Assembly (NCBI GenBank): GCA_009914755.4
Contig: CP086569.2
Location: 42,080,001-42,144,000, forward strand
DNA length: 64,000 nt
Reading direction: 5' to 3'
Source of the DNA: the human T2T-CHM13v2.0 reference genome, Homo sapiens
The notes below the pieces were generated by a model, which did no database searches, had not been told where the DNA came from, and worked only from the letters and a program-made list of their open reading frames with translations. This document shows, one piece after another, positions 14,101 through 39,722 of this stretch (the stretch's first letter is position 1; the number at the start of each line of letters is the position of its first letter). The position numbers and the translations under genes were made by a program.

Positions 14101-14750
14101 ATCAAATGGAATGGAAAGGAATTGAATGGAGTAGATGGGATTGGATGGGATTGGAATGAAATGTACTGGAAAGGACTCGAATTTCATGAAACGGAATGGA
14201 ATGAATTGGAACGGAATGGACTCGAATGGAATGGAATGTCATGGGATGGCATCAAATGGAATGACATCAAATGGAATGGAATCGAATGCAATGGAATGCT
14301 ATGGAATGGAATGGAATGCATTGGAATGGAATGTCCGCTAATGGAATGGATTCGAGTGGAATGGAATTGAATATAATGGAGTCGAATGAAATGGAATTGA
14401 AAGGAATGGGATCGAATACAATGGAATATACTGGAATGTAACGTAATGAACTCGAATGTAATTGACTGGAATGGAATGTACATGAATGGAATGTAATCGA
14501 ATGGAAAGTAATCCAATGGAATAGAATCTAATGCAATAAAATCGACTCAGATAGAGTAGAATGTAATGGAATGGAGTGCAGTGCAATGGAATGGAATGGA
14601 ATGGAATGCAATGGAATGGAATGGAATGGAATGGAATGGAATGGAATGGAATGGGATGGAATGGGATGGAATGGTATGGAATGGATAGTAATGGACTGGA
14701 GTGAAATGGACTGGAAAGGAATGGACTCAAATTGAAAGGTCTCGAAAGGA
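11177..14750 (+). repeat. HOR unit 4 (3574 bp), subtype B (15-bp deletion form)
   Basis: Anchor recurrence. 'ggaatcgaacggaatggactcg' at ~12404-12425 lacks one 'aatcgaacggaatgg' copy. 'gtaatgcaaggttctcg' at ~12104. Confidence 0.85.
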
Positions 14751-17700: not shown

Positions 17701-18309
17701 TGGAGTAGATTGGATTGGATGGGATTGGAATGAAATGTACTGGAAAGGACTCGAATTTCATGAAACGGAATGGAATGAATTGGAACGGAATGGACTCGAA
17801 TGGAATGGAATGTCATGGGATGGCATCAAATGGAATGACATCAAATGGAATGGAATCGAATGCAATGGAATGCTATGGAATGGAATGGAATGCATTGGAA
17901 TGGAATGTCCTATAATGGAATGGATTCGAGTGGAATGGAATTGAATATAATGGAGTCGAATGAAATGGAATTGAAAGGAATGGGATCGAATACAATGGAA
18001 TATACAGGAATGTAACGTAATGAACTCGAATGTAATTGACTGGAATGGAATGTACATGAATGGAATGTAATCGAATGGAAAGTAATCCAATGGAATAGAA
18101 TCTAATGCAATAAAATCGACTCAGATAGAGTAGAATGTAATGGAATGGAGTGCAGTGCAATGGAATGGAATGGAATGGAATGCAATGGAATGGAATGGAA
18201 TGGAATGGAATGGAATGGAATGGGATGGAATGGTATGGAATGGATAGTAATGGACTGGAGTGAAATGGACTGGAAAGGAATGGACTCAAATTGAAAGGGC
18301 TCGAAAGGA
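14751..18309 (+). repeat. HOR unit 5 (3559 bp), subtype B
   Basis: Anchor recurrence. Same 15-bp deletion form at ~15978. Tail shares variants with unit 2 ('gtagattggattgg' ~17704, 'tatacaggaatg' ~18001). Confidence 0.85.
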
Positions 18310-21300
18310 ATGGAGTCAAATGGAATGGTCTGGAATGGAATGAACACGAATGTAATGCAACCCAATAGAATGGAATCGAATGGCATGGAATATAAAGAAA
18401 TGGAATCGAAGAGAATGGAAACAAATGGAATGGAATTGAATGGAATGGAATTGAATGGAATGGGAACGAATGGAGTGAAATTGTATGCAGTAGAAGAGAA
18501 TAGAATGGAATGCAAGCGAAAGGAAAGGAATGGATTGGAATGGAATGGAATTCATTGGAATGGAAGGGAATGTAGTGTAATGGACAGGCCTGGAATAAAG
18601 TGGAATGCTACGGTCTCGAATGGAATAAAAATGTATGGAATGGAATGCAATGAAACGGAATCGAATGTCATAGAATGTAATGGAATGCAAAAAAATGGAA
18701 TCCAAAATCATTGACTGGAAAGGCTGGGTGTCGAAAGGAATTGACTCCAATGGAATGGAATCGAATGGAATGGAAGTGAATAGAATCGAACTAAATCGAA
18801 TGGAATGGAATTGATAGGAACGGAATGGAAAGGAATGCAATGATTTGGCATGGAATGGAATCGAATGGCATCGAATGGAATGGAATGGAATGCATGGAAT
18901 GGAATGTATTAGAATGTAATGAACTTTAATGGAATGTACTCGAATGGATTCGACTGGAATGGAATGTTCTGGAAGTGAATGGACTCCAATGGAATGGATT
19001 CAAAAGGAATGGAATCGTACGGAATGGAATCTAATGGAATGGAATTAAATGGAAATGAATCAAATTGAATAGCACGGAATTGAATTGAATGGAATGGAAT
19101 GCAATGGAATCTAATGAAACGGAAAGGAAAGGAATGGAATGGAATGGAATGGGCTGGAATGGAAAGGAATCGAAACGAATGGAATGGAATCGAAGTGAAG
19201 AGACTGGAATGGAATGCACTGGAATGGAAGGGAGTGTAATGGAAGGTTCTCGAAAAAAATGGAATCGAATGGAATGGAATTGAATGGAACGGAATAGAGT
19301 CGAATGGAATTGAATGGAATGGAATGGACTAGAGTGAAATGGAATCGAACCACAAGGAATGGACAGGAATAGAATGGTCTCGAATTGAATGGAATCGTAT
19401 GGAATGGCATCAAACGGAATGGAATGGACAGCCACGGAATGGAATGCACTCGAATGCAATGGAGTCGAAACTAATGGACTGGAATAGAATGGACTCGACT
19501 GGTACGGACTCCAATGGAATGGAATCGAATGGAAGGGAATCGAACGGAATGGAATCGAACGGAATGGACTCGAAGGGAAAAGACTGCAATGGAAAGGTCT
19601 CGAATGGAATGGAAATTAATGGAATGGAATGGAATCGAATGAAATGGAGTCAAAAGGAATGGAATCGAATGGCAAGAAATCGAATGTAATGGAATCGCCA
19701 GGAATTGATGTGAACGGAACGGAATGGAATGGAATCCAAAGGAATGGAATAGAATGGAATGGAATCGAATGGAAAGGACTCGAATGGAAATCACTCGAAT
19801 AGAATGCAATTTAATAAAATAGGATCAAATGTAATGGAATGGAATGGAAAGGAATCGAAACGAAAGGAATGGAGACAGATGGAATGGAATGGAACAGAGA
19901 GCAATGGTATAGAATGGAATGGAATCATCTGGAATGGAATTGAATGGAATGGAATAATATGAAATGGAATGGAATGGAATGGAATGGAATGCCCTTGAAT
20001 TAAATGGACTGGAATGGAATGGACTCAAACAGAGTGGAATGGAAAGTGTGGAGATAGAATGGAATGAACTCCTTTGGAATGGTGTAGTATGCAATGCAAT
20101 CGACTGGCAGGGAGTCAAAAGGTATGTAATCGAATGGATTGGACTGGAATGCAAAGGACTCGAATAGATTGGAAACGGAATGCAAAGGAATGGAATGGAA
20201 TAGTATGGAATGCAATGGAAGGGAATGCAGTGGAATAGACTAGAGTGGAATGGAATGGACTGGAAAGCAATGGACTGGAATGGAACTTTCTTGGATGGAC
20301 TGGAATCAAACGGAATGGAATGCAGTGCAATCAAATGGCATGGAATAAAATAGAATGAAAGAGAATCAAATGGAATTGAATCGAATGGAATCGAATGGAT
20401 TGGAAAGGAATAGAATGGAATGGAATGGAATTGACTCAAATGGAATGGACTAGAATGGAATGGATTCGAATGGAAGGCAAAGGAATGGAATCTATTGGAA
20501 TGGACTGTAATGGAATGGAATGGAAGGGATTGGAATGGACTCGAATGGAATGGACTGCAATAGAAAGGATTCGAATGGAATGAAAAAGAATTGAATGGAA
20601 TAGAACAGAATGGAATCAAATCGAATGAAATGGAATGGAATAGAAAGGAATGGAATGAAATGGAATGGAAAGGATTCGAATGGAATGCAATCGAATGGAA
20701 TGGAATCGAACGGAATGGAATAAAATGGAAGAAAACTGGCAAGAAATGGAATCGAAATGAATGGAGTGTTATGGAACGGACTCAAAAGGAATTGAATGTA
20801 ATAGAATGGAGTGGAGTGGACTCGAATATAATGGACTGGAATGGAATGAAATCACATGGAATGGGAACGAATGGAATGGAATGGAAAGGAAAGGAATCGA
20901 ATGGAAGGGAATGAAATTGAATCAACACGAATGGAAGGGAATAGAATAGACTGTAATGGAATGGACTCGAATAGAATGGACACGAATGCTCAAATTAAAT
21001 GGACTCGAATGGAATGGAAACGAAAGGAATGTCATCGAATGGAATTGAATCGATTGGAATGAAATCGCATAGAATGGAGTGGAATCAAATGGAATTGAAT
21101 CGAAAGGAAAGGAAGCGAATGGACTGAAATGAAATGGAATGGAATTGAATGGAAAGTAATGCAATGGAATAGAATGGAACGAAATTTCACGGAATGGAAT
21201 CAAACTGAATGGAATCAAATCAATGGAATCAAATCAAATGGAATGGAAAGGAATTGAATGGAGTAGATGGGATTGGATGGGATTGGAATGAAATGTACTG

Positions 21301-21862
21301 GAAAGGACTCGAATTTCATGAAACGGAATGGAATGAATTGGAACGGAATGGACTCGAATGGAATGGAATGTCATGGGATGGCATCAAATGGAATGACATC
21401 AAATGGAATGGAATCGAATGCAATGGAATGCTATGGAATGGAATGGAATGCATTGGAATGGAATGTCCGCTAATGGAATGGATTCGAGTGGAATGGAATT
21501 GAATATAATGGAGTCGAATGAAATGGAATTGAAAGGAATGGGATCGAATACAATGGAATATACTGGAATGTAACGTAATGAACTCGAATGTAATTGACTG
21601 GAATGGAATGTACATGAATGGAATGTAATCGAATGGAAAGTAATCCAATGGAATAGAATCTAATGCAATAAAATCGACTCAGATAGAGTAGAATGTAATG
21701 GAATGGAGTGCAGTGCAATGGAATGGAATGGAATGGAATGCAATGGAATGGAATGGAATGGAATGGGATGGAATGGGATGGAATGGTATGGAATGGATAG
21801 TAATGGACTGGAGTGAAATGGACTGGAAAGGAATGGACTCAAATTGAAAGGTCTCGAAAGGA
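18310..21862 (+). repeat. HOR unit 6 (3553 bp), subtype A. Near-copy of unit 3.
   Basis: Anchor recurrence. 'tgcatgg' 1-bp deletion at 18901-18907. Shares the 'gtcaaaaggtatgtaatcg'/'gaatgcaaaggactcg' variants with unit 3 (9393/20114). Confidence 0.85.
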
Positions 21863-24800
21863 ATGGAGTCAAATGGAATGGTCTGGAATGGAATGAACAC
21901 GAATGTAATGCAACCCAATAGAATGGAATCGAATGGCATGGAATATAAAGAAATGGAATCGAAAAGAATGGAAACAAATGGAATGGAATTGAATGGAATG
22001 GAATTGAATGGAATGGGAACGAATGGAGTGAAATTGTATGCAGTAGAAGAGAATAGAATGGAATGCAAGCGAAAGGAAAGGAATGGATTGGAATGGAATG
22101 GAATTCATTGGAATGGAAGGGAATGTAGTGTAATGGACAGGCCTGGAATAAAGTGGAATGCTACGGTCTCGAATGGAATAAAAATGTATGGAATGGAATG
22201 CAATGAAACGGAATCGAATGTCATAGAATGTAATGGAATGCAAAAAAATGGAATCCAAAATCATTGACTGGAAAGGCTGGGTGTCGAAAGGAATTGACTC
22301 CAATGGAATGGAATCGAATGGAATGGAAGTGAATAGAATCGAACTAAATCGAATGGAATGGAATTGATAGGAACGGAATGGAAAGGAATGCAATGATTTG
22401 GCATGGAATGGAATCGAATGGCATCGAATGGAATGGAATGGAATGCAATGGAATGGAATGTATTAGAATGTAATGAACTTTAATGGAATGTACTCGAATG
22501 GATTCGACTGGAATGGAATGTTCTGGAAGTGAATGGACTCCAATGGAATGGATTCAAAAGGAATGGAATCGTACGGAATGGAATCTAATGGAATGGAATT
22601 AAATGGAAATGAATCAAATTGAATAGCACGGAATTGAATTGAATGGAATGGAATGCAATGGAATCTAATGAAACGGAAAGGAAAGGAATGGAATGGAATG
22701 GAATGGGCTGGAATGGAAAGGAATCGAAACGAATGGAATGGAATCGAAGTGAAGAGACTGGAATGGAATGCACTGGAATGGAAGGGAGTGTAATGCAAGG
22801 TTCTCGAAAAAAATGGAATCGAATGGAATGGAATTGAATGGAACGGAATAGAGTCGAATGGAATTGAATGGAATGGAATGGACTAGAGTGAAATGGAATC
22901 GAACCACAAGGAATGGACAGGAATAGAATGGTCTCGAATTGAATGGAATCGTATGGAATGGCATCAAACGGAATGGAATGGACAGCCACGGAATGGAATG
23001 CACTCGAATGCAATGGAGTCGAAACTAATGGACTGGAATAGAATGGACTCGACTGGTACGGACTCCAATGGAATGGAATCGAATGGAAGGGAATCGAACG
23101 GAATGGACTCGAAGGGAAAAGACTGCAATGGAAAGGTCTCGAATGGAATGGAAATTAATGGAATGGAATGGAATCGAATGAAATGGAGTCAAAAGGAATG
23201 GAATCGAATGGCAAGAAATCGAATCTAATGGAATCGCCAGGAATTGATGTGAACGGAACGGAATGGAATGGAATCCAAAGGAATGGAATAGAATGGAATG
23301 GAATCGAATGGAAAGGACTCGAATGGAAATCACTCGAATAGAATGCAATTTAATAAAATGGGATCAAATGTAATGGAATGGAATGGAAAGGAATTGAAAC
23401 GAAAGGAATGGAGACAGATGGAATGGAATGGAACAGAGAGCAATGGTATAGAATGGAATGGAATCATCTGGAATGGAATTGAATGGAATGGAATAATATG
23501 AAATGGAATGGAATGGAATGGAATGGAATGCCCTTGAATTAAATGGACTGGAATGGAATGGACTCAAACAGAGTGGAATGGAAAGTGTGGAGATAGAATG
23601 GAATGAACTCCTTTGGAATGGTGTAGTATGCAATGCAATCGACTGGCAGGGAATCACAAGGAATGTAATCGAATGGATTGGACTGAAATGCAATGGACTC
23701 GAATAGATTGGAAACGGAATGCAAAGGAATGGAATGGAATAGTATGGAATGCAATGGAAGGGAATGGAGTGGAATAGACTAGAGTGGAATGGAATGGACT
23801 GGAAAGCAATGGACTGGAATGGAACATTCTTGGATGGACTGGAATCAAACGGAATGGAATGCAATGCAATCAAATGGCATGGAATAAAATAGAATGAAAG
23901 AGAATCAAATGGAATTGAATCGAATGGAATCGAATGGATTGGAAAGGAATAGAATGGAATGGAATGGAATTGACTCAAATGGAATGGACTAGAATGGAAT
24001 GGATTCGAATGGAAGGCAAAGGAATGGAATCTATTGGAATGGACTGTAATGGAATGGAATGGAAGGGATTCGAATGGACTCGAATGGAATGGACTGCAAT
24101 AGAAAGGATTCGAATGGAATGAAAAAGAATTGAATGGAATAGAACAGAATGGAATCAAATCGAATGAAATGGAATGGAATAGAAAGGAATGGAATGAAAT
24201 GGAATGGAAAGGATTCGAATGGAATGCAATCGAATGGAATGGAATCGAACGGAATGGAATAAAATGGAAGAAAACTGGCAAGAAATGGAATCGAAATGAA
24301 TGGAGTGTTATGGAACGGACTCAAAAGGAATTGAATGTAATAGAATGGAGTGGAGTGGACTCGAATATAATGGACTGGAATGGAATGAAATCACATGGAA
24401 TGGGAACGAATGGAATGGAATGGAAAGGAATGGAATCGAATGGAAAGGAATCGAATGGAAGGAAATGAAATTGAATCAACACGAATGGAAGGGAATAGAA
24501 TAGACTGTAATGGAATGGACTCGAATAGAATGGACACGAATGCTCAAATTAAATGGACTCGAATGGAATGGAAACGAAAGGAATGTCATCGAATGGAATT
24601 GAATCGATTGGAATGAAATCGCATAGAATGGAGTGGAATCAAATGGAATTGAATCGAAAGGAAAGGAAGCGAATGGACTGAAATGAAATGGAATGGAATT
24701 GAATGGAAAGTAATGCAATGGAATAGAATGGAACGAAATTTCACGGAATGGAATCAAACTGAATGGAATCAAATCAATGGAATCAAATCAAATGGAATGG

Positions 24801-25431
24801 AAAGGAATTGAATGGAGTAGATGGGATTGGATGGGATTGGAATGAAATGTACTGGAAAGGACTCGAATTTCATGAAACGGAATGGAATGAATTGGAACGG
24901 AATGGACTCGAATGGAATGGAATGTCATGGGATGGCATCAAATGGAATGGCATCAAATGGAATGGAATCGAATGCAATGGAATGCTATGGAATGGAATGG
25001 AATGCATTGGAATGGAATGTCCTCTAATGGAATGGATTCGAGTGGAATGGAATTGAATATAATGGAGTCGAATGAAATGGAATTGAAAGGAATGGGATCG
25101 AATACAATGGAATATACTGGAATGTAATGTAATGAACTCGAATGTAATTGACTGGAATGGAATGTACATGAATGGAATGTAATCGAATGGAAAGTAATCC
25201 AATGGAATAGAATCTAATGCAATAAAATCGACTCAGATAGAGTAGAATGTAATGGAATGGAGTGCAGTGCAAAGGAATGGAATGGAATGGAATGCAATGG
25301 AATGGAATGGAATGGAATGGAATGGAATGGAATGGAATGGAATGGGATGGAATGGTATGGAATGGATAATAATAGACTGGAGTGAAATGGACTGGAAAGG
25401 AATGGACTCAAATTGAAAGGGCTCGAAAGGA
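21863..25431 (+). repeat. HOR unit 7 (3569 bp), subtype B. First unit of the central 'ggaatggcatcaaatgg' domain.
   Basis: Anchor recurrence. 15-bp deletion form ~23100. 'ggaatggcatcaaatgg' at ~24946. Confidence 0.85.
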
Positions 25432-28400
25432 ATGGATTCAAATGGAATGGTCTGGAATGGAATGAACACGAATGTAATGCAACCCAATAGAATGGAATCG
25501 AATGGCATGGAATATAAAGAAATGGAATCGAAGAGAATGGAAACAAATGGAATGGAATTGAATGGAATGGAATTGAATGGAATGGGAACGAATGGAGTGA
25601 AATTGTATGCAGTAGAAGAGAATAGAATGGAATGCAAGCGAAAGGAAAGGAATGGATTGGAATGGAATGGAATTCATTGGAATGGAAGGGAATGTAGTGT
25701 AATGGACAGGCCTGGAATAAAGTGGAATGCTACGGTCTCGAATGGAATAAAAATGTATGGAATGGAATGCAATGAAACGGAATCGAATGTCATAGAATGT
25801 AATGGAATGCAAAAAAATGGAATCCAAAATCATTGACTGGAAAGGCTGGGTGTCGAAAGGAATTGACTCCAATGGAATGGAATCGAATGGAATGGAAGTG
25901 AATAGAATCGAACTAAATCGAATGGAATGGAATTGATAGGAACGGAATGGAAAAGAATGCAATGATTTGGCATGGAATGGAATCGAATGGCATCGAATGG
26001 AATGGAATGGAATGCAATGGAATGGAATGTATTAGAATGGAATGAACTTTAATGGAATGTACTCGAATGGATTCGACTGGAATGGAATGTTCTGGAAGTG
26101 AATGGACTCCAATGGAATGGATTCAAAAGGAATGGAATCGTACGGAATGGAATCTAATGGAATGGAATTAAATGGAAATGAATCAAATTGAATAGCACGG
26201 AATTGAATTGAATGGAATGGAATGCAATGGAATCTAATGAAACGGAAAGGAAAGGAATGGAATGGAATGGAATGGGCTGGAATGGAAAGGAATCGAAACG
26301 AATGGAATGGAATCGAAGTGAAGAGACTGGAATGGAATGCACTGGAATGGAAGGGAGTGTAATGGAAGGTTCTCGAAAAAAATGGAATCGAATGGAATGG
26401 AATTGAATGGAACGGAATAGAGTCGAATGGAATTGAATGGAATGGAATGGACTAGAGTGAAATGGAATCGAACCACAAGGAATGGACAGGAATAGAATGG
26501 TCTCGAATTGAATGGAATCGTATGGAATGGCATCAAACCGAATGGAATGGACAGCCACGGAATGGAATGCACTCGAATGCAATGGAGTCGAAACTAATGG
26601 ACTGGAATAGAATGGACTCGACTGGTACGGACTCCAATGGAATGGAATCGAATGGAAGGGAATCGAACGGAATGGACTCGAAGGGAAAAGACTGCAATGG
26701 AAAGGTCTCGAATGGAATGGAAATTAATGGAATGGAATGGAATCGAATGAAATGGAGTCAAAAGGAATGGAATCGAATGGCAAGAAATCGAATGTAATGG
26801 AATCGCCAGGAATTGATGTGAACGGAACGGAATGGAATGGAATCCAAAGGAATGGAATAGAATGGAATGGAATCGAATGGAAAGGACTCGAATGGAAATC
26901 ACTCGAATAGAATGCAATTTAATAAAATAGGATCAAATGTAATGGAATGGAATGGAAAGGAATCGAAACGAAAGGAATGGAGACAGATGGAATGGAATGG
27001 AACAGAGAGCAATGGTATAGAACGGAATGGAATCATCTGGAATGGAATTGAATGGAATGGAATAATATGAAATGGAATGGAATGGAATGGAATGGAATGC
27101 CCTTGAATTAAATGGACTGGAATGGAATGGACTCAAACAGAGTGGAATGGAAAGTGTGGAGATAGAATGGAGTGAACTCCTTTGGAATGGTGTAGTATGC
27201 AATGCAATCGACTGGCAGGGAATCAAAAGGAATGTAATCGAATGGATTGGACTGGAATGCAATGGACTCGAATAGATTGGAAACGGAATGCAAAGGAATG
27301 GAATGGAATAGTATGGAATGCAATGGAAGGGAATGGAGTGGAATAGACTAGAGTGGAATGGAATGGACTGGAAAGCAATGGACTGGAATGGAACTTTCTT
27401 GGATGGACTTTAATCAAACGGAATGGAATGCAATGCAATCAAATGGCATGGAATAAATTAGAATGAAAGAGAATCAAATGGAATTGAATCGAATGGAATC
27501 GAATGGATTGGAAAGGAATAGAATGGAATGGAATGGAATTGACTCAAATGGAATGGACTAGAATGGAATGGATTCGAATGGAAGGCAAAGGAATGGAATC
27601 TATTGGAATGGACTGTAATGGAATGGAATGGAAGGGATTGGAATGGACTCGAATGGAATGGACTGCAATAGAAAGGATTCGAATGGAATGAAAAAGAATT
27701 GAATGGAATAGAACAGAATGGAATCAAATCGAATGAAATGGAATGGAATAGAAAGGAATGGAATGAAATGGAATGGAAAGGATTCGAATGGAATGCAATC
27801 GAATGGAATGGAATCGAACGGAATGGAATAAAATGGAAGAAAACTGGCAAGAAATGGAATCGAAATGAATGGAGTGTTATGGAACGGACTCAAAAGGAAT
27901 TGAATGTAATAGAATGGAGTGGAGTGGACTCGAATATAATGGACTGGAATGGAATGAAATCACATGGAATGGGAACGAATGGAATGGAATGGAAAGGAAT
28001 GGAATCGAATGGAAAGGAATCGAATGGAAGGGAATGAAATTGAATCAACACGAATGGAAGGGAATAGAATAGACTGTAATGGAATGGACTCGAATAGAAT
28101 GGACACGAATGCTCAAATTAAATGGACTCGAATGGAATGGAAACGAAAGGAATGTCATCGAATGGAATTGAATCGATTGGAATGAAATCGCATAGAATGG
28201 AGTGGAATCAAATGGAATTGAATCGAAAGGAAAGGAAGCGAATGGACTGAAATGAAATGGAATGGAATTGAATGGAAAGTAATGCAATGGAATAGAATGG
28301 AACGAAATTTCACGGAATGGAATCAAACTGAATGGAATCAAATCAATGGAATCAAATCAAATGGAATGGAAAGGAATTGAATGGAGTAGATGGGATTGGA

Positions 28401-28995
28401 TGGGATTGGAATGAAATGTACTGGAAAGGACTCGAATTTCATGAAACGGAATGGAATGAATTGGAACGGAATGGACTCGAATGGAATGGAATGTCATGGG
28501 ATGGCATCAAATGGAATGGCATCAAATGGAATGGAATCGAATGCAATGGAATGCTATGGAATGGAATGGAATGCATTGGAATGGAATGTCCTCTAATGGA
28601 ATGGATTCGAGTGGAATGGAATTGAATATAATGGAGTCGAATGAAATGGAATTGAAAGGAATGGGATCGAATACAATGGAATATACTGGAATGTAACGTA
28701 ATGAACTCGAATGTAATTGACTGGAATGGAATGTACATGAATGGAATGTAACCGAATGGAAAGTAATCCAATGGAATAGAATCTAATGCAATAAAATCGA
28801 CTAAGATAGAGTAGAATGTAATGGAATGGAGTGCAGTGCAATGGAATGGAATGGAATGGAATGCAATGGAATGGAATGGAATGGAATGGAATGGAATGGA
28901 ATGGAATGGGATGGAATGGTATGGAATGGATAGTAATGGACTGGAGTGAAATGGACTGGAAAGGAATGGACTCAAATTGAAAGGGCTCGAAAGGA
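25432..28995 (+). repeat. HOR unit 8 (3564 bp), subtype B
   Basis: Anchor recurrence. 15-bp deletion form ~26660. Private 'ggactttaatc' at ~27407 and 'gaataaattagaatg' at ~27452. Confidence 0.85.
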
Positions 28996-31900
28996 ATGGA
29001 GTCAAATGGAATGGTCTGGAATGGAATGAACACGAATGTAATGCAACCCAATAGAATGGAATCGAATGGCATGGAATATAAAGAAATGGAATCGAAGAGA
29101 ATGGAAACAAATGGAATGGAATTGAATGGAATGGAATTGAATGGAATGGGAACGAATGGAGTGAAATTGTATGCAGTAGAAGAGAATAGAATGGAATGCA
29201 AGCGAAAGGAAAGGAATGGATTGGAATGGAATGGAATTCATTGGAATGGAAGGGAATGTAGTGTAATGGACAGGCCTGGAATAAAGTGGAATGCTACGGT
29301 CTCGAATGGAATAAAAATGTATGGAATGGAATGCAATGAAACGGAATCGAATGTCATAGAATGTAATGGAATGCAAAAAAATGGAATCCAAAATCATTGA
29401 CTGGAAAGGCTGGGTGTCGAAAGGAATTGACTCCAATGGAATGGAATCGAATGGAATGGAAGTGAATAGAATCGAACTAAATCGAATGGAATGGAATTGA
29501 TAGGAACGGAATGGAAAGGAATGCAATGATTTGGTATGGAATGGAATCGAATGGCATCGAATGGAATGGAATGGAATGCAATGGAATGGAATGTATTAGA
29601 ATGTAATGAACTTTAATGGAATGTACTCGAATGGATTCGACTGGAATGGAATGTTCTGGAAGTGAATGGACTCCAATGGAATGGATTCAAAAGGAATGGA
29701 ATCGTACGGAATGGAATCTAATGGAATGCAATTAAATGGAAATGAATCAAATTGAATAGCACGGAATTGAATTGAATGGAATGGAATGCAATGGAATCTA
29801 ATGAAACGGAAAGGAAAGGAATGGAATGGAATGGAATGGGCTGGAATGGAAAGGAATCGAAACGAATGGAATGGAATCGAACTGAAGAGACTGGAATGGA
29901 ATGCACTGGAATGGAAGGGAGTGTAATGGAAGGTTGTCGAAAAAAATGGAATCGAATGGAATGGAATTGAATGGAACGGAATAGAGTCGAATGGAATTGA
30001 ATGGAATGGAATGGACTAGAGTGAAATGGAATCGAACCACAAGGAATGGACAGGAATAGAATGGTCTCGAATTGAATGGAATCGTATGGAATGGCATCAA
30101 ACGGAATGGAATGGACAGCCACGGAATGGAATGCACTCGAATGCAATGGAGTCGAAACTAATGGACTGGAATAGAATGGACTCGACTGGTACGGACTCCA
30201 ATGGAATGGAATCGAATGGAAGGGAATCGAACGGAAGGGAATCGAACGGAATGGACTCGAAGGGAAAAGACTGCAATGGAAAGGTCTCGAATGGAATGGA
30301 AATTAATGGAATGGAATGGAATCGAATGAAATGGAGTCAAAAGGAATGGAATCGAATGGCAAGAAATCTAATGTAATGGAATCGCCAGGAATTGATGTGA
30401 ACGGAACGGAATGGAATGGAATCCAAAGGAATGGAATAGAATGGAATGGAATCGAATGGAAAGGACTCGAATGGAAATCACTCGAATAGAATGCAATTTA
30501 ATAAAATAGGATCAAATGTAATGGAATGGAATGGAAAGGAATTGAAACGAAATGAATGGAGACAGATGGAATGGAATGGAACAGAGAGCAATGGTATAGA
30601 ATGGAATGGAATCATCTGGAATGGAATTGAATGGAATGGAATAATATGAAATGGAATGGAATGGAATGGAATGGAATGCCCTTGAATTAAATGGACTGGA
30701 ATGGAATGGACTCAAACAGAGTGGAATGGAAAGTGTGGAGATAGAATGGAATGAACTCCTTTGGAATGGTGTAGTATGCAATGCAATCGACTGGCAGGGA
30801 ATCAAAAGGAATGTAATCGAATGGATTGGACTGGAATGCAATGGACTCGAATAGATTGGAAACGGAATGCAAAGGAATGGAATGGAATAGTATGGAATGC
30901 AATGGAAGGGAATGGAGTGGAATAGACTAGAGTGGAATGGAATGGACTGGAAAGCAATGGACTGGAATGGAACTTTCTTGTATGGACTGGAATCAAACGG
31001 AATGGAATGCAATGCAATCAAATGGCATGGAATAAAATAGAATGAAAGAGAATCAAATGGAATTGAATCGAATGGAATCGAATGGATTGGAAAGGAATAG
31101 AATGGAATGGAATGGAATTGACTCAAATGGAATGGACTAGAATGGAATGGATTCGAATGGAAGGCAAAGGAATGGAATCTATTGGAATGGACTGTAATGG
31201 AATGGAATGGAAGGGATTCGAATGGACTCGAATGGAATGGACTGCAATAGAAAGGATTCGAATGGAATGAAAAAGAATTGAATGGAATAGAACAGAATGG
31301 AATCAAATCGAATGAAATGGAATGGAATAGAAAGGAATGGAATGAAATGGAATGGAAAGGATTCGAATGGAATGCAATCGAATGGAATGGAATCGAACGG
31401 AATGGAATAAAATGGAAGAAAACTGGCAAGAAATGGAATCGAAATGAATGGAGTGTTATGGAACGGACTCAAAAGGAATTGAATGTAATAGAATGGAGTG
31501 GAGTGGACTCGAATATAATGGACTGGAATGGAATGAAATCACATGGAATGGGAACGAATGGAATGGAATGGAAAGGAATGGAATCGAATGGAAAGGAATC
31601 GAATGGAAGGAAATGAAATTGAATCAACACGAATGGAAGGGAATAGAATAGACTGTAATGGAATGGACTCGAATAGAATGGACACGAATGCTCAAATTAA
31701 ATGGACTCGAATGGAATGGAAACGAAAGGAATGTCATCGAATGGAATTGAATCGATTGGAATGAAATCGCATAGAATGGAGTGGAATCAAATGGAATTGA
31801 ATCGAAAGGAAAGGAAGCGAATGGACTGAAATGAAATGGAATGGAATTGAATGGAAAGTAATGCAATGGAATAGAATGGAACGAAATTTCACGGAATGGA

Positions 31901-32564
31901 ATCAAACTGAATGGAATCAAATCAATGGAATCAAATCAAATGGAATGGAAAGGAATTGAATGGAGTAGATGGGATTGGATGGGATTGGAATGAAATGTAC
32001 TGGAAAGGACTCGAATTTCATGAAACGGAATGGAATGAATTGGAACGGAATGGACTCGAATGGAATGGAATGTCATGGGATGGCATCAAATGGAATGGCA
32101 TCAAATGGAATGGAATCGAATGCAATGGAATGCTATGGAATGGAATGGAATGCATTGGAATGGAATGTCCTCTAATGGAATGGATTCGAGTGGAATGGAA
32201 TTGAATATAATGGAGTCGAATGAAATGGAATTGAAAGGAATGGGATCGAATACAATGGAATATACTGGAATGTAACGTAATGAACTCGAATGTAATTGAC
32301 TGGAATGGAATGTACATGAATGGAATGTAATCGAATGGAAAGTAATCCAATGGAATAGAATCTAATGCAATAAAATCGACTCAGATAGAGTAGAATGTAA
32401 TGGAATGGAGTGCAGTGCAATGGAATGGAATGGAATGCAATGGAATGGAATGGAATGGAATGGAATGGAATGGAATGGGATGGAATGGTATGGAATGGAT
32501 AGTAATAGACTGGAGTGAAATGGACTGGAAAGGAATGGACTCAAATTGAAAGGGCTCGAAAGGA
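28996..32564 (+). repeat. HOR unit 9 (3569 bp), subtype C
   Basis: Anchor recurrence. C-form 'cgaacggaagggaatcgaacggaatggactcg' at ~30228-30260. 'aaggttgtcg' at ~29933. Confidence 0.85.
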
Positions 32565-35500
32565 ATGGAGTCAAATGGAATGGTCTGGAATGGAATGAAC
32601 ACGAATGTAATGCAACCCAATAGAATGGAATCGAATGGCATGGAATATAAAGAAATGGAATCGAAGAGAATGGAAACAAATGGAATGGAATTGAATGGAA
32701 TGGAATTGAATGGAATGGGAACGAATGGAGTGAAATTGTATGCAGTAGAAGAGAATAGAATGGAATGCAAGCGAAAGGAAAGGAATGGATTGGAATGGAA
32801 TGGAATTCATTGGAATGGAAGGGAATGTAGTGTAATGGACAGGCCTGGAATAAAGTGGAATGCTACGGTCTCGAATGGAATAAAAATGTATGGAATGGAA
32901 TGCAATGAAACGGAATCGAATGTCATAGAATGTAATGGAATGCAAAAAAATGGAATCCAAAATCATTGACTGGAAAGGCTGGGTGTCGAAAGGAATTGAC
33001 TCCAATGGAATGGAATCGAATGGAATGGAAGTGAATAGAATCGAACTAAATCGAATGGAATGGAATTGATAGGAACGGAATGGAAAAGAATGCAATGATT
33101 TGGCATGGAATGGAATCGAATGGCATCGAATGGAATGGAATGGAATGCAATGGAATGGAATGTATTAGAATGGAATGAACTTTAATGGAATGTACTCGAA
33201 TGGATTCGACTGGAATGGAATGTTCTGGAAGTGAATGGACTCCAATGGAATGGATTCAAAAGGAATGGAATCGTACGGAATGGAATCTAATGGAATGGAA
33301 TTAAATGGAAATGAATCAAATTGAATAGCACGGAATTGAATTGAATGGAATGGAATGCAATGGAATCTAATGAAACGGAAAGGAAAGGAATGGAATGGAA
33401 TGGAATGGGCTGGAATGGAAAGGAATCGAAACGAATGGAATGGAATCGAACTGAAGAGACTGGAATGGAATGCACTGGAATGGAAGGGAGTGTAATGGAA
33501 GGTTGTCGAAAAAAATGGAATCGAATGGAATGGAATTGAATGGAACGGAATAGAGTCGAATGGAATTGAATGGAATGGAATGGACTAGAGTGAAATGGAA
33601 TCGAACCACAAGGAATGGACAGGAATAGAATGGTCTCGAATTGAATGGAATCGTATGGAATGGCATCAAACGGAATGGAATGGACAGCCACGGAATGGAA
33701 TGCACTCGAATGCAATGGAGTCAAAACTAATGGACTGGAATAGAATGGACTCGACTGGTACGGACTCCAATGGAATGGAATCGAATGGAAGGGAATCGAA
33801 CGGAAGGGAATCGAACGGAATGGACTCGAAGGGAAAAGACTGCAATGGAAAGGTCTCGAATGGAATGGAAATTAATGGAATGGAATGGAATCGAATGAAA
33901 TGGAGTCAAAAGGAATGGAATCGAATGGCAAGAAATCGAATGTAATGGAATCGCCAGGAATTGATGTGAACGGAACGGAATGGAATGGAATCCAAAGGAA
34001 TGGAATAGAATGGAATGGAATCGAATGGAAAGGACTCGAATGGAAATCACTCGAATAGAATGCAATTTAATAAAATAGGATCAAATGTAATGGAATGGAA
34101 TGGAAAGGAATCGAAACGAAAGGAATGGAGACAGATGGAATGGAATGGAACAGAGAGCAATGGTATAGAACGGAATGGAATCATCTGGAATGGAATTGAA
34201 TGGAATGGAATAATATGAAATGGAATGGAATGGAATGGAATGGAATGCCCTTGAATTAAATGGACTGGAATGGAATGGACTCAAACAGAGTGGAATGGAA
34301 AGTGTGGAGATAGAATGGAATGAACTCCTTTGGAATGGTGTAGTATGCAATGCAATCGACTGGCAGGGAATCAAAAGGAATGTAATCGAATGGATTGGAC
34401 TGGAATGCAATGGACTCGAATAGATTGGAAACGGAATGCAAAGGAATGGAATGGAATAGTATGGAATGCAATGGAAGGGAATGGAGTGGAATAGACTAGA
34501 GTGGAATGGAATGGACTGGAAAGCAATGGACTGGAATGGAACTTTCTTGGATGGACTGGAATCAAACGGAATGGAATGCAATGCAATCAAATGGCATGGA
34601 ATAAATTAGAATGAAAGAGAATCAAATGGAATTGAATCGAATGGAATCGAATGGATTGGAAAGGAATAGAATGGAATGGAATGGAATTGACTCAAATGGA
34701 ATGGACTAGAATGGAATGGATTCGAATGGAAGGCAAAGGAATGGAATCTATTGGAATGGACTGTAATGGAATGGAATGGAAGGGATTGGAATGGACTCGA
34801 ATGGAATGGACTGCAATAGAAAGGATTCGAATGGAATGAAAAAGAATTGAATGGAATAGAACAGAATGGAATCAAATCGAATGAAATGGAATGGAATAGA
34901 AAGGAATGGAATGAAATGGAATGGAAAGGATTCGAATGGAATGCAATCGAATGGAATGGAATCGAACGGAATGGAATAAAATGGAAGAAAACTGGCAAGA
35001 AATGGAATCGAAATGAATGGAGTGTTATGGAACGGACTCAAAAGGAATTGAATGTAATAGAATGGAGTGGAGTGGACTCGAATATAATGGACTGGAATGG
35101 AATGAAATCACATGGAATGGGAACGAATGGAATGGAATGGAAAGGAATGGAATCGAATGGAAAGGAATCGAATGGAAGGGAATGAAATTGAATCAACACG
35201 AATGGAAGGGAATAGAATAGACTGTAATGGAATGGACTCGAATAGAATGGACACGAATGCTCAAATTAAATGGACTCGAATGGAATGGAAACGAAAGGAA
35301 TGTCATCGAATGGAATTGAATCAATTGGAATGAAATCGCATAGAATGGAGTGGAATCAAATGGAATTGAATCGAAAGGAAAGGAAGCGAATGGACTGAAA
35401 TGAAATGGAATGGAATTGAATGGAAAGTAATGCAATGGAATAGAATGGAACGAAATTTCACGGAATGGAATCAAACTGAATGGAATCAAATCAATGGAAT

Positions 35501-36143
35501 CAAATCAAATGGAATGGAAAGGAATTGAATGGAGTAGATGGGATTGGATGGGATTGGAATGAAATGTACTGGAAAGGACTCGAATTTCATGAAACGGAAT
35601 GGAATGAATTGGAACGGAATGGACTCGAATGGAATGGAATGTCATGGGATGGCATCAAATGGAATGGCATCAAATGGAATGGAATCGAATGCAATGGAAT
35701 GCTATGGAATGGAATGGAATGCATTGGAATGGAATGTCCTCTAATGGAATGGATTCGAGTGGAATGGAATTGAATATAATGGAGTCGAATGAAATGGAAT
35801 TGAAAGGAATGGGATCGAATACAATGGAATATACTGGAATGTAACGTAATGAACTCGAATGTAATTGACTGGAATGGAATGTACATGAATGGAATGTAAT
35901 CGAATGGAAAGTAATCCAATGGAATAGATTCTAATGCAATAAAATCGACTCAGATAGAGTAGAATGTAATGGAATGGAGTGCAGTGCAATGGAATGGAAT
36001 GGAATGGAATGCAATGGAATGGAATGGAATGGAATGGAATGGAATGGAATGGAATGGGATGGAATCGTATGGAATGGATAGTAATGGACTGGAGTGAAAT
36101 GGACTGGAAAGGAATGGACTCAAATTGAAAGGGCTCGAAAGGA
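32565..36143 (+). repeat. HOR unit 10 (3579 bp), subtype C
   Basis: Anchor recurrence. C-form at ~33795. 'gaataaattagaatg' at ~34599 shared with unit 8. Confidence 0.85.
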
Positions 36144-39100
36144 ATGGAGTCAAATGGAATGGTCTGGAATGGAATGAACACGAATGTAATGCAACCCAAT
36201 AGAATGGAATCGAATGGCATGGAATATAAAGAAATGGAATCGAAGAGAATGGAAACAAAGGGAATGGAATTGAATGGAATGGAATTGAATGGAATGGGAA
36301 CGAATGGAGTGAAATTGTATGCAGTAGAAGAGAATAGAATGGAATGCAAGCGAAAGGAAAGGAATGGATTGGAATGGAATGGAATTCATTGGAATGGAAG
36401 GGAATGTAGTGTAATGGACAGGCCTGGAATAAAGTGGAATGCTACGGTCTCGAATGGAATAAAAATGTATGGAATGGAATGCAATGAAACGGAATCGAAT
36501 GTCATAGAATGTAATGGAATGCAAAAAAATGGAATCCAAAATCATTGACTGGAAAGGCTGGGTGTCGAAAGGAATTGACTCCAATGGAATGGAATCGAAT
36601 GGAATGGAAGTGAATAGAATCGAACTAAATCGAATGGAATGGAATTGATAGGAACGGAATGGAAAGGAATGCAATGATTTGGCATGGAATGGAATCGAAT
36701 GGCATCGAATGGAATGGAATGGAATGCAATGGAATGGAATGTATTAGAATGTAATGAACTTTAATGGAATGTACTCGAATGGATTCGACTGGAATGGAAT
36801 GTTCTGGAAGTGAATGGACTCCAATGGAATGGATTCAAAAGGAATGGAATCGTACGGAATGGAATCTAATGGAATGGAATTAAATGGAAATGAATCAAAT
36901 TGAATAGCACGGAATTGAATTGAATGGAATGGAATGCAATGGAATCTAATGAAACGGAAAGGAAAGGAATGGAATGGAATGGAATGGGCTGGAATGGAAA
37001 GGAATCGAAACGAATGGAATGGAATCGAACTGAAGAGACTGGAATGGAATGCACTGGAATGGAAGGGAGTGTAATGGAAGGTTGTCGAAAAAAATGGAAT
37101 CGAATGGAATGGAATTGAATGGAACGGAATAGAGTCGAATGGAATTGAATGGAATGGAATGGACTAGAGTGAAATGGAATCGAACCACAAGGAATGGACA
37201 GGAATAGAATGGTCTCGAATTGAATGGAATCGTATGGAATGGCATCAAACGGAATGGAATGGACAGCCACGGAATGGAATGCACTCGAATGCAATGGAGT
37301 CGAAACTAATGGACTGGAATAGAATGGACTCGACTGGTACGGACTCCAATGGAATGGAATCGAATGGACGGGAATCGAACGGAAGGGAATCGAACGGAAT
37401 GGACTCGAAGGGAAAAGACTGCAATGGAAAGGTCTCGAATGGAATGGAAATTAATGGAATGGAATGGAATCGAATGAAATGGAGTCAAAAGGAATGGAAT
37501 CGAATGGCAAGAAATCGAATGTAATGGAATCGCCAGGAATTGATGTGAACGGAACGGAATGGAATGGAATCCAAAGGAATGGAATAGAATGGAATGGAAT
37601 CGAATGGAAAGGACTCGAATGGAAATCACTCGAATAGAATGCAATTTAATAAAATAGGATCAAATGTAATGGAATGGAATGGAAAGGAATCGAAACGAAA
37701 GGAATGGAGACAGATGGAATGGAATGGAACAGAGAGCAATGGTATAGAATGGAATGGAATCATCTGGAATGGAATTGAATGGAATGGAATAATATGAAAT
37801 GGAATGGAATGGAATGGAATGGAATGCCCTTGAATTAAATGGACTGGAATGGAATGGACTCAAACAGAGTGGAATGGAAAGTGTGGAGATAGAATGGAAT
37901 GAACTCCTTTGGAATGGTGTAGTATGCAATGCAATCGACTGGCAGGGAATCAAAAGGAATGTAATCGAATGGATTGGACTGGAATGCAATGGACTCGAAT
38001 AGATTGGAAACGGAATGCAAAGGAATGGAATGGAATAGTATGGAATGCAATGGAAGGGAATGGAGTGGAATAGACTAGAGTGGAATGGAATGGACTGGAA
38101 AGCAATGGACTGGAATGGAACTTTCTTGGATGGACTGGAATCAAACGGAATGGAATGCAGTGCAATCAAATGGCATGGAATAAAATAGAATGAAAGAGAA
38201 TCAAATGGAATTGAATCGAATGGAATCGAATGGATTGGAAAGGAATAGAATGGAATGGAATGGAATTGACTCAAATGGAATGGACTAGAATGGAATGGAT
38301 TCGAATGGAAGGCAAAGGAATGGAATCTATTGGAATGGACTGTAATGGAATGGAATGGAAGGGATTGGAATGGACTCGAATGGAATGGACTGCAATAGAA
38401 AGGATTCGAATGGAATGAAAAAGAATTGAATGGAATAGAACAGAATGGAATCAAATCGAATGAAATGGAATGGAATAGAAAGGAATGGAATGAAATGGAA
38501 TGGAAAGGATTCGAATGGAATGCAATCGAATGGAATGGAATCGAACGGAATGGAATAAAATGGAAGAAAACTGGCAAGAAATGGAATCGAAATGAATGGA
38601 GTGTTATGGAACGGACTCAAAAGGAATTGAATGTAATAGAATGGAGTGGAGTGGACTCGAATATAATGGACTGGAATGGAATGAAATCACATGGAATGGG
38701 AACGAATGGAATGGAATGGAAAGGAATGGAATCGAATGGAAAGGAATCGAATGGAAGGGAATGAAATTGAATCAACAGGAATGGAAGGGAATAGAATAGA
38801 CTGTAATGGAATGGACTCGAATAGAATGGACACGAAAGCTCAAATTAAATGGACTCGAATGGAATGGAAACGAAAGGAATGTCATCGAATGGAATTGAAT
38901 CGATTGGAATGAAATCGCTTAGAATGGAGTGGAATCAAATGGAATTGAATCGAAAGGAAAGGAAGCGAATGGACTGAAATGAAATGGAATGGAATTGAAT
39001 GGAAAGTAATGCAATGGAATAGAATGGAACGAAATTTCACGGAATGGAATCAAACTGAATGGAATCAAATCAATGGAATCAAATCAAATGGAATGGAAAG

Positions 39101-39722
39101 GAATTGAATGGAGTAGATGGGATTGGATGGGATTGGAATGAAATGTACTGGAAAGGACTCGAATTTCATGAAACGGAATGGAATGAATTGGAACGGAATG
39201 GACTCGAATGGAATGGAATGTCATGGGATGGCATCAAATGGAATGGCATCAAATGGAATGGAATCGAATGCAATGGAATGCTATGGAATGGAATGGAATG
39301 CATTGGAATGGAATGTCCTCTAATGGAATGGATTCGAGTGGAATGGAATTGAATATAATGGAGTCGAATGAAATGGAATTGAAAGGAATGGGATCGAATA
39401 CAATGGAATATACTGGAATGTAACGTAATGAACTCGAATGTAATTGACTGGAATGGAATGTACATGAATGGAATGTAATCGAATGGAAAGTAATCCAATG
39501 GAATAGATTCTAATGCAATAAAATCGACTCAGATAGAGTAGAATGTAATGGAATGGAGTGCAGTGCAATGGAATGGAATGGAATGGAATGCAATGGAATG
39601 GAATGGAATGGAATGGAATGGAATGGAATGGAATGGGATGGAATCGTATGGAATGGATAGTAATGGACTGGAGTGAAATGGACTGGAAAGGAATGGACTC
39701 AAATTGAAAGGGCTCGAAAGGA
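36144..39722 (+). repeat. HOR unit 11 (3579 bp), subtype C. Near-identical to unit 12.
   Basis: Anchor recurrence. Shares 'ggaaacaaagggaatgg', 'ggaatcgtatgg', 'gaatggacgggaatcg', 'cacgaaagctc' and 'aatcgcttagaatgg' with unit 12. Confidence 0.85.

What the first reader, a model, noticed from the sequence alone, without database searches (positions are those of the whole stretch)
23300..34700. Patchy sharing of variant sets between copies two units apart, in mosaic form
Units 7 and 9 share 'ggaattgaaacg' (~23385, ~30538), 'gggattcgaatggactcg' (~24068, ~31216), 'ggaaggaaatgaaattg' (~24458, ~31606) and 'ggaaggaaag' ('NGRK'). Units 8 and 10 share 'agaacggaatgg' (~27019, ~34167) and 'gaataaattagaatg' (~27452, ~34599). 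The front ~1.5 kb of the same units differs in subtype: B in units 7 and 8, C in units 9 and 10. Unit 17 likewise has a B-like front and a C-form centre. Unit 15 combines 'ggaaacaaagggaatgg', otherwise seen only in units 11-13, with unit-7 variants ('PSKNV' and 'PRMF' in the minus-strand ORFs). So individual copies are chimeras of blocks from different lineages. Short-tract gene conversion superimposed on unequal crossover fits this better than simple segmental duplication.
Basis: partly seen in the sequence, partly recalled or inferred. Interest (0 to 1): 0.5.

Follow-up and report, generated by a model that had tools for sequence, protein, structure and literature searches.

The report
Mosaic repeat copies in human Y satellite DYZ1
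The window is an ordinary stretch of the human Y-chromosome satellite DYZ1, and the patchy sharing of variants between copies two units apart is real but is mostly the trace of one old two-copy tandem duplication plus a few gene-conversion-like patches, a mode of evolution already documented for this satellite.

Summary
The window is 18 tandem copies (3,449-3,589 bp) of human DYZ1/HSat3A6. Each has one HaeIII site, and seven published DYZ1 primers sit at their published positions.

All five private SNVs lie exactly 7,148 bp apart. Two items were counted twice, and one quoted string does not exist.

One 2-unit tandem duplication explains most of the pattern. Its junction lies inside unit 9 (30238-30542). 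That makes unit 9 a chimera: its front is like unit 11 and its back is like unit 7. Unit 10 is a copy of unit 8.

The exception is a 356-997 bp central patch in unit 10 (33451-33806 minimum). It carries exactly the haplotype of both neighbours, which looks like gene conversion. Units 2, 8 and 17 carry clusters of foreign variants.

The matrix is not tree-like: 72 of 378 SNV pairs fail the four-gamete test. My simulations of unequal exchange alone fail that test just as often, so the test cannot separate conversion from crossover.

Pedigree studies from 2025-26 already report intra-array gene conversion and unequal exchange in DYZ1. The finding is real, partly well interpreted, and not new.

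The parts
1..64000 (+). Human DYZ1 (HSat3A6) satellite array: 17 complete units and one truncated unit of 3,449-3,589 bp. The + strand is the GGAAT strand.
   Evidence: Tandem Repeats Finder reports pentamer-based arrays over the whole window. The higher-order period is 3,554-3,589 bp. There is one GGCC (HaeIII) site per unit, and published DYZ1 primers hit once per unit.
21445..35715 (+). U7 is 21445-24998, U8 is 24999-28567, U9 is 28568-32146 and U10 is 32147-35715.
   Evidence: Anchor-based segmentation and the variant matrix.
23395..30237 (+). Left copy of the inferred 2-unit (7,148-bp) tandem duplication: the back of U7, all of U8 and the front of U9.
   Evidence: The offset-2 comparison differs at 25 events over 6.85 kb, against 33-53 at every other offset. 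The shared rare variants are listed.
30543..37385 (+). Right copy of the duplication: the back of U9, all of U10 and the front of U11.
30238..30542 (+). Interval that contains the duplication junction inside U9. To its left U9 matches U11; to its right U9 matches U7.
   Evidence: The last marker where U9 differs from U7 is column 1684. The first private variant shared by U7 and U9 is column 1990.
23090..23394 (+). Interval that contains U7's own chimeric junction. Its front matches U4/U5. Its back carries the ancestral alleles at columns 2459 and 3545 and the U7/U9-private variants.
33451..33806 (+). Minimum extent of the conversion-like patch in U10 (outer bounds 33174-34170). It holds three markers: column 1329 C, column 1383 G and the duplicated 15-mer with G. 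All three are identical to both neighbours, U9 and U11. They are flanked on both sides by rare variants that U10 shares with U8.
   Evidence: Polarity comes from external copies.
25954..27458 (+). The U8 segment that carries the rare variants shared with U10. Columns 965 and 1051 are also shared with U14. Columns 2049 and 2484 are private to U8 and U10. The segment surrounds the single-copy 15-mer at 26658/26659.
4426..5124 (+). A cluster of 6-7 private variants in U2 within about 700 bp. U2 has none elsewhere. This is a candidate imported tract from a donor outside the window.
   Evidence: Range test p = 0.0014.
58431..60165 (+). A cluster of 12 private variants in U17. At least two of them (columns 1833 and 3101) are the allele of the external DYZ1 consensus, while all 17 other units carry the derived allele.
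   Evidence: Range test p = 0.0022.
25128..25437 (+). Four private variants in the front of U8 (columns 129-448). Column 129 T is the external-consensus allele that the other 17 units lack.
44485..44486 (+). Site of the 110-bp deletion in U13, between AATGGAAT direct repeats. It lies in the same segment as the 15-bp indel.

Best explanation
The window is a piece of a DYZ1 (HSat3A6) array from human Yq12. It is non-coding heterochromatic satellite.

Its copies diverge by point mutation and pentamer slippage. They are reshuffled by misaligned recombination between sister chromatids.

Crossover outcomes duplicate or delete whole numbers of units and leave one chimeric unit per event. The period-2 pattern in 23300-34700 is one such event. 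It is a 7,148-bp (2-unit) tandem duplication with its junction in U9 (30238-30542).

Non-crossover outcomes (gene conversion) overwrite short patches without changing copy number. The best example is the 356-997 bp patch in U10, copied from an adjacent unit. Likely further examples are the foreign tracts in U2, U8 and U17.

Shown here: the identity of the satellite, the variant matrix, the common lag, the chimeric structure of U9 and the two-breakpoint patch in U10.

Inferred: that the patches arose by conversion rather than by paired duplication and deletion, and that the exchange is between sister chromatids.
For: Identity. The window is pentamer-based throughout. The unit is 3.45-3.59 kb. 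There is one HaeIII site per unit, with fragments that include 3,564 bp twice and 3,569 bp twice. Seven of the eight DYZ1 primers in PMC3925983 Table 5 hit once per unit at the published distances from the HaeIII site. GC is 38-40% and there is 1 CpG per 35 bp, matching the description in 10.1101/2022.12.01.518658.

Duplication. All five private SNVs share a lag of 7,148 bp. U9 matches U11 in front and U7 behind. U8 and U10 share five rare variants. The offset-2 comparison is the closest of 14 offsets.

Patch. Three linked markers in U10 switch to the haplotype of U9 and U11, and are flanked by markers shared with U8.

Foreign tracts. U2 and U17 carry clusters of private variants (p = 0.0014 and 0.0022). 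Two clusters that strong occurred together in 1 of 169 windows simulated under unequal exchange alone. U8 and U17 carry external-consensus alleles that the rest of the window has lost.

Literature. In PMC12240836, 29% of de novo Yq12 SNVs match non-orthologous Yq12 sites, which the authors attribute to interlocus gene conversion. In 10.64898/2026.06.03.729890, 17% of de novo Yq12 SNV events are consistent with gene conversion. In 10.1101/2022.12.01.518724, Yq12 shows unequal-exchange patterns and sister-chromatid exchange in about 15% of Strand-seq libraries.
Against: Within this window, conversion is not statistically separable from unequal exchange.

PHI gives p = 0.09-0.56. In the GENECONV-like test only U3-U6 survives Bonferroni correction. 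That pair is similar across almost the whole unit (run bounded by columns 156-3031), so this is not a short tract. U7-U9 reaches a nominal 0.007 only.

Simulated arrays with unequal exchange alone give similar incompatibility. They show two-breakpoint patches in 12-21% of windows, and an even higher share of lineage-type mismatches inside spans of shared variants (27-38%, against 3 of 13 observed).

The simulation is not calibrated. It gives 16-27 singletons on average, against 69 observed.

The 15-mer marker is prone to slippage, so the U10 patch rests securely on only two SNVs.

Read-level support for the assembly could not be checked.
Confidence: 0.72

Rival explanations
1. Unequal sister-chromatid exchange alone. 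Every mosaic, including the U10 patch and the clusters in U2, U8 and U17, comes from successive duplications and deletions of whole units with junctions at different positions inside the unit. No non-crossover conversion is involved.
For: A one-unit duplication followed by a one-unit deletion with a nearby junction produces exactly a patch copied from the neighbour (logical derivation). Simulations of this model reproduce the observed four-gamete failure rate, and give U8/U10-type patches in 12-21% of windows.
Against: It needs two extra events that restore copy number for each two-breakpoint patch. Two private-variant clusters as strong as those in U2 and U17 occurred together in only 1 of 169 simulated windows. 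Pedigree data show conversion-type SNV changes in Yq12.
Confidence: 0.17
2. Assembly or consensus artefact. Near-identical units were mis-phased or polished against the wrong reads, creating false chimeras and false private variants.
For: There is an unusual excess of singletons (72 of 102 SNVs). The spectrum is rich in transversions, with a transition:transversion count of 34:68 and G>T as the commonest singleton. The source and read support are unknown.
Against: The key variants are each present in two or more units at one exact lag, which random error does not produce. The shared variants have the same transversion-rich spectrum as the singletons. Several 'private' alleles equal the independent external DYZ1 consensus.
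Confidence: 0.07
3. Recurrent mutation (homoplasy) at hypermutable sites gives the appearance of mosaics.
For: DYZ1 is CpG-rich and methylated. The 15-mer and the pentamer run are prone to slippage. Two focal SNVs are CpG transitions: column 1990 (U7/U9) and column 2049 (U8/U10).
Against: Only 2 of 30 informative SNVs are CpG transitions, and 22 are transversions. Linked sets of variants switch together, as at columns 1329 and 1383, or the four U3/U6 sites.
Confidence: 0.04

Closest known systems
DYZ1 / HSat3A6 arrays of human Yq12, as described in the T2T-Y assembly and the 43-Y assemblies (10.1101/2022.12.01.518724; 10.1101/2022.12.01.518658)
   Same: The window is derived from the same pentamer. 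It has the same ~3.5-3.6 kb nested unit and a single HaeIII site per unit, with fragments of 3,564 and 3,569 bp. GC is ~38% and there is 1 CpG per 35 bp. Units are more than 98% identical. The duplication patterns are those attributed to unequal exchange.
   Different: Nothing structural differs. The window shows only DYZ1, so the alternation with DYZ2 and the chromosomal position are not visible.
Intra-array (interlocus) gene conversion in Yq12 seen in father-son transmissions (PMC12240836; 10.64898/2026.06.03.729890)
   Same: Variants in one copy match alleles already present in other copies. Patches are short. The context is the same satellite.
   Different: Those studies observe single new changes across one generation. 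Here the events are old and inferred from a static sequence (about 0.36% divergence since the 2-unit duplication). They cannot be separated rigorously from paired unequal exchanges.
Concerted evolution of tandem arrays by unequal crossover and conversion. From my own knowledge: Smith 1976; Dover 1982; alpha-satellite DXZ1 conversion mapping by Schindelhauer and Schwarz 2002; rDNA arrays.
   Same: There is local homogenisation. Multi-unit duplications make short-lived higher periodicities. Junctions produce chimeric units.
   Different: The satellite family is different. On the male-specific Y, exchange is expected to be between sister chromatids or within a chromatid, not between homologues. 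That is inferred, not tested here.

Membership tests
DYZ1 / HSat3A6 | Built from diverged GGAAT/ATTCC pentamers | tested here: met
   Tandem Repeats Finder consensus periods of 15, 25 and 45 bp, all made of GGAAT, cover positions 1-63997.
DYZ1 / HSat3A6 | Nested tandem unit of about 3.56-3.6 kb | tested here: met
   Unit lengths are 3,449-3,589 bp, with a mode of 3,574-3,579 bp.
DYZ1 / HSat3A6 | One HaeIII site per unit, giving the classical 3.4-3.56 kb fragment | tested here: met
   There are 18 GGCC sites, one per unit. Fragments include 3,564 bp twice and 3,569 bp twice. The reference values are 3,564 bp in PMC3925983 and a modal 3,569 bp in 10.1101/2022.12.01.518658.
DYZ1 / HSat3A6 | Sequence match to DYZ1-specific primers at their published positions | tested here: met
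   Primers B, C, D, E and F match exactly. G matches with 1 mismatch and A with up to 2. Each hits once per unit, and for primers B, C and D, which I checked, the distances from the HaeIII site agree with the published positions (my arithmetic from the coordinates). H fails, apparently because one G is missing from the printed primer. The Kogan Y1.1/Y1.2 primers, recalled from memory, also match exactly and give a 154-bp amplicon.
DYZ1 / HSat3A6 | Location in Yq12, interleaved with DYZ2 blocks | not testable with these tools
   No human genome collection is available, and the window contains no DYZ2.
Tandem duplication by unequal exchange | Shared variants at one lag that equals a whole number of units | tested here: met
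   All five private SNVs lie at a lag of 7,148 bp. Lag 7,148 is also the commonest multi-unit k-mer distance.
Tandem duplication by unequal exchange | One chimeric junction unit. Its front matches the unit k to the right, and its back matches the unit k to the left. | tested here: met
   The front of U9 shares columns 1329 C, 1383 G and the double-G 15-mer with U11. The back of U9 shares columns 1990, 2666 and 3058 with U7.
Tandem duplication by unequal exchange | The intervening unit is duplicated as a whole | tested here: inconclusive
   U8 and U10 share the variants at columns 385, 965, 1051, 2049 and 2484. They differ in the central patch at columns 1329-1684.
Non-allelic (intra-array) gene conversion | A short patch of one lineage bounded on both sides by another lineage, with the donor haplotype present in the array | tested here: met
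   The U10 patch at 33451-33806 is identical to U9 and U11, while its flanks are shared with U8.
Non-allelic (intra-array) gene conversion | More patches than unequal exchange alone would give | tested here: inconclusive
   Simulations of unequal exchange alone give similar patches and incompatibility. Only the joint U2 and U17 clustering is unusual, at 1 of 169 windows. The simulation is not calibrated.
Non-allelic (intra-array) gene conversion | Non-reciprocal transfer with no change in copy number | not testable with these tools
   This needs the same array in related Y chromosomes or in a pedigree.

The most novel reading that the evidence does not exclude
The DYZ1 unit may contain a preferred site for breakage or exchange at about alignment columns 1650-1990, around a 15-bp tandem duplication. 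Four kinds of event fall in this ~9% of the unit. They are the chimeric junctions of both U7 and U9, the 15-bp gain/loss polymorphism, and the 110-bp deletion in U13. If this holds across whole arrays, exchange in this satellite would start at a defined sequence rather than at random.
Probability: 0.1. Interest if true: 0.35.

Novelty: already known. Interest (0 to 1): 0.15.

Why it matters
It matters little beyond confirmation. The window gives a worked small-scale example of how DYZ1 copies are reshuffled: one dated 2-unit duplication with a mapped junction, and one patch of 0.36-1 kb copied from a neighbour.

It also gives a methodological caution. In tandem arrays, failure of the four-gamete test, or a variant matrix that is not tree-like, is not evidence for gene conversion. 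Every unequal exchange already creates a chimeric unit.

That DYZ1 evolves by unequal exchange together with intra-array conversion is already published from complete Y assemblies and pedigrees.

Tried and rejected
1. Literature search for the Kogan primer strings found nothing. I used the primers in PMC3925983 instead.

2. I looked for long multi-unit stretches free of any variant event that would mark a recent block duplication. The longest such stretch is 2,674 alignment columns, in U3 versus U6. The duplications are therefore old.

3. The PHI test on unpolarised and polarised SNVs is not significant.

4. A GENECONV-like permutation test of the longest concordant run is significant after Bonferroni correction only for U3-U6.

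5. I tested out-of-register conversion within the unit as the source of the SNVs. Derived alleles match non-orthologous k-mers no more often than unobserved alternative alleles do (25% vs 22%, 9% vs 6%, 4% vs 1%). This was rejected.

6. Three statistics meant to separate conversion from unequal exchange all failed to discriminate against simulated arrays with exchange alone. They were S-MM-S patches, lineage-type mismatches inside spans of shared variants, and foreign-allele differences between near-identical pairs.

7. CpG hypermutability as the source of homoplasy was rejected. Only 2 of 30 informative SNVs are CpG transitions.

8. Coding potential of the minus-strand 305-aa ORFs was rejected. 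The ORFs are what the stop-poor pentamer composition produces. The U8/U10-private SNV and other private SNVs put stop codons into them.

Full report
**What the sequence is**

The whole window is pentamer satellite. Tandem Repeats Finder reports (GGAAT)-based arrays from 1 to 63997. GC is 38-40% with a constant strong G-over-C skew. K-mer spacing shows a higher-order period of 3,554-3,589 bp.

I cut the window at a 20-mer that occurs once per period. This gave 17 complete units and one truncated unit, starting at 13, 3587, 7176... 60599. The lengths are 3,449-3,589 bp.

Each unit has exactly one HaeIII site. The HaeIII fragments include 3,564 bp twice and 3,569 bp twice.

Seven of the eight DYZ1 primers in Table 5 of PMC3925983 hit once per unit. 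For primers B, C and D, which I checked, the distances from the HaeIII site agree with the published positions. Those positions run along the window's minus strand.

The consensus unit has 102 CpG in 3,579 bp, or 1 per 35 bp. This figure and the ~38% GC match the description of DYZ1 in 10.1101/2022.12.01.518658.

A 65-bp piece of the unit occurs in 35 contigs of metagenome assemblies, at least one of which (L035) is labelled as a human gut metagenome.

The window is therefore human DYZ1 (HSat3A6), the 3.5-kb satellite of Yq12. Its chromosomal position itself could not be tested.

**Checking the observation**

I aligned the 18 units with MAFFT (3,594 columns). They differ pairwise by 0.03-1.9%, apart from U13, which carries a deletion. 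There are 127 variant events. Of these, 102 are SNVs: 72 singletons and 30 shared.

The exception is 'ggaaggaaag', which does not occur.

- U7 and U9 share three private SNVs: 23395/30543, 24071/31219 and 24463/31611.
- U8 and U10 share two private SNVs: 27023/34171 and 27458/34606.
- All five pairs are exactly 7,148 bp apart.

Two items were counted twice. 'NGRK' is the same SNV as the third U7/U9 string. 'PSKNV' and 'PRMF' are one SNV (column 2421) read in two overlapping frames, so U7 and U15 share only one private site.

The statement about the front 1.5 kb needs a correction. U7 and U9 do differ across columns 24-1684. U8 and U10 instead share the rare variants at columns 385, 965 and 1051 in the front. 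They differ only in a central patch at columns 1329-1684.

**What explains the period-2 pattern**

An unequal exchange with an offset of two units turns an array W, V, Z into W, V, (front of Z + back of W), V, Z. Set W = U7, V = U8 and Z = U11. The model then predicts three things, and all three are seen.

- The front of U9 matches U11. Both carry 1329 C, 1383 G and the duplicated 15-mer ending in G.
- The back of U9 matches U7. Both carry the three private SNVs, and the two units have no difference at all from column 2429 to the end of the unit.
- U10 matches U8, through five shared rare variants.

The junction in U9 lies between column 1684 and column 1990, which is 30238-30542.

The 6.85-kb span from the back of U7 to the front of U9 differs from the span two units to its right at 25 events. 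At the 13 other offsets tested it differs at 33-53 events.

The duplication is therefore real but old, at about 0.36% divergence. With the Yq12 rate of 3.86e-7 per bp per generation from PMC12240836, that is roughly 4,700 generations. This is a rough inference.

So the main pattern is itself a simple tandem segmental duplication. The chimeric nature of U9 follows from it directly.

**What the duplication does not explain**

U10 carries 1329 C, 1383 G and the double 15-mer. That is exactly the haplotype of both its neighbours, U9 and U11. U8 carries 1329 G, 1383 C and the single 15-mer, and U14 agrees with U8 at the two SNVs.

The patch in U10 is flanked by variants shared with U8: columns 965 and 1051 on the left, and 2049 and 2484 on the right.

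- Minimum extent: 33451-33806 (356 bp).
- Maximum extent: 33174-34170 (997 bp).

A single conversion from an adjacent unit explains it. Under exchange alone it needs a one-unit duplication followed by a one-unit deletion with a nearby junction. The 15-mer marker is prone to slippage, so the secure evidence is the two linked transversions.

There are other patch candidates.

- U2 has all 6-7 of its private variants within 4426-5124 (p = 0.0014).
- U17 has its 12 private variants within 58431-60165 (p = 0.0022).
- U8 has four private variants within 25128-25437.

**External polarisation**

The metagenome contigs are probably collapsed consensus DYZ1 sequences from other males. They give an approximate ancestral state.

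- They all carry C-G-C at columns 1329/1376/1383 (36 of 36).
- They carry the single 15-mer 23 times, the double-G form twice and the double-T form never.

At columns 129, 1833 and 3101, seventeen of the 18 units share a derived allele. The exceptions are U8 (column 129) and U17 (columns 1833 and 3101), which carry the external-consensus allele. This fits tracts brought in from outside the local lineage.

In the polarised matrix, derived alleles form contiguous runs along the array. Examples are column 3545 A in U1-6 and U15-17, and column 1329 G in U1-8. U7 is itself a chimera, with a front like U4/U5 and a different back.

**Is the matrix tree-like, and does that decide anything?**

It is not tree-like.

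| Data set | Pairs failing the gamete test (four-gamete; three-gamete when polarised) | Rm |
|---|---|---|
| All informative SNVs | 94 of 435 | 10 |
| After removing two alignment artefacts | 72 of 378 | 8 |
| Polarised with the external consensus | 96 of 465 | 10 |

PHI is not significant (p = 0.05-0.56). In a GENECONV-like permutation test only U3-U6 survives correction. U7-U9 reaches a nominal 0.007.

More importantly, I simulated arrays that evolve only by unequal exchange, with random junctions inside the unit and infinite-sites mutation.

- Eighteen-unit windows from these arrays show 14-23% incompatible pairs on average. The observed value is 19-21%.
- Rm reaches up to 9-13.
- A two-breakpoint patch of the U8/U10 type appears in 12-21% of windows.
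- The share of lineage-type mismatches inside spans of shared variants is even higher than observed.

The only departure from the model is that two private-variant clusters as strong as those in U2 and U17 occurred together in 1 of 169 simulated windows. The simulation is also not calibrated. It gives 16-27 singletons on average, against 69 observed.

**Comparison with what is known**

- The T2T-Y paper reports unequal-exchange patterns and sister-chromatid exchanges in Yq12.
- The 43-Y study describes the 3.5-kb unit and local homogenisation within arrays.
- A four-generation pedigree study found that 29% of de novo Yq12 SNVs match non-orthologous Yq12 sites, and attributed them to interlocus gene conversion within DYZ1/DYZ2.
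- A 2026 preprint classed 17% of de novo Yq12 SNV events as conversion.

It rests on stronger evidence than a single static window can give.

**Verdict**

The copies are chimeras and the matrix is not tree-like. Most of the pattern is one ordinary 2-unit duplication, and conversion is likely but not demonstrable here.

- Novelty: already known.
- Interest: low.

Noticed in passing
whole window (variant matrix of the 18 units): The SNV spectrum is rich in transversions. The transition:transversion count is 34:68. Among singletons, G>T (17) is the commonest change. The shared variants show the same bias (8:22). This is far from the usual human ratio of about 2:1. A lowered ratio has been reported for duplicated sequence in PMC12240836. 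The cause here is unknown.
   Followed up: partly
alignment columns 290-370 of every unit, e.g. 21735-21800 in U7 and 32437-32490 in U10: This is a pure (GGAAT)n run whose pentamer count differs in almost every unit. It behaves like a microsatellite inside the unit. The two apparent SNVs shared by U10 and U17 (columns 291 and 296) are a one-pentamer register shift of the GCAAT variant, not substitutions.
   Followed up: yes
44485/44486 (U13, 42874-46322): U13 is only 3,449 bp long. It has a 110-bp deletion between AATGGAAT direct repeats, plus about 25 bp lost from the pentamer run.
   Followed up: partly
columns 1655-1700 of each unit, e.g. 26658/26659 in U8 and 33777-33806 in U10: There is a 15-bp tandem duplication polymorphism, GGAATCGAACGGAA(T/G). 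U4, U5, U7 and U8 have a single copy. U13 has lost this segment in its 110-bp deletion. The other 13 units have a double copy, in two subtypes (T or G). Thirty-five external DYZ1 contigs carry the single copy 23 times, double-G twice and double-T never. The duplication is therefore the derived state and looks specific to this sub-array.
   Followed up: yes
U1-U2 (13-7175) versus U17-U18 (57025-64000): U1 resembles U17 (0.62% different), and U2 resembles U18 (0.50%). They share rare indel states. This hints at a larger duplication with a period of 16 units (about 57 kb), cut off by the end of the window.
   Followed up: no
minus strand, one per unit, e.g. 23364-24281: A 305-aa ORF with a TTG start recurs once per unit on the ATTCC strand. 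It is expected from the stop-poor pentamer composition. The U8/U10-private SNV (27458/34606) creates a stop codon in it. U8 has a second stop and U15 has another. There is therefore no coding constraint.
   Followed up: yes
columns 129, 1833 and 3101 (e.g. 25128 in U8; 58431-60165 in U17): Seventeen of the 18 units share alleles that differ from the consensus of external DYZ1 copies. Only U8 (column 129) and U17 (columns 1833 and 3101) keep or regained the external allele. The window therefore belongs to a distinct local DYZ1 lineage with a few foreign tracts.
   Followed up: partly
23090-23394 (U7) and 30238-30542 (U9): The chimeric junctions of U7 and U9 fall in the same marker interval (columns 1684-1990). 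This interval is next to the 15-bp indel and the U13 deletion. It could be a coincidence of sparse markers or a segment prone to exchange.
   Followed up: no
loci L008, L009, L017 (contig BNJT01001888.1, 55,496 bp) and L011 (contig BNJU01004413.1, 54,597 bp): Two contigs of about 55 kb in public metagenome assemblies contain DYZ1 units. They are probably human Y-chromosome DNA assembled as part of a metagenome.
   Followed up: no
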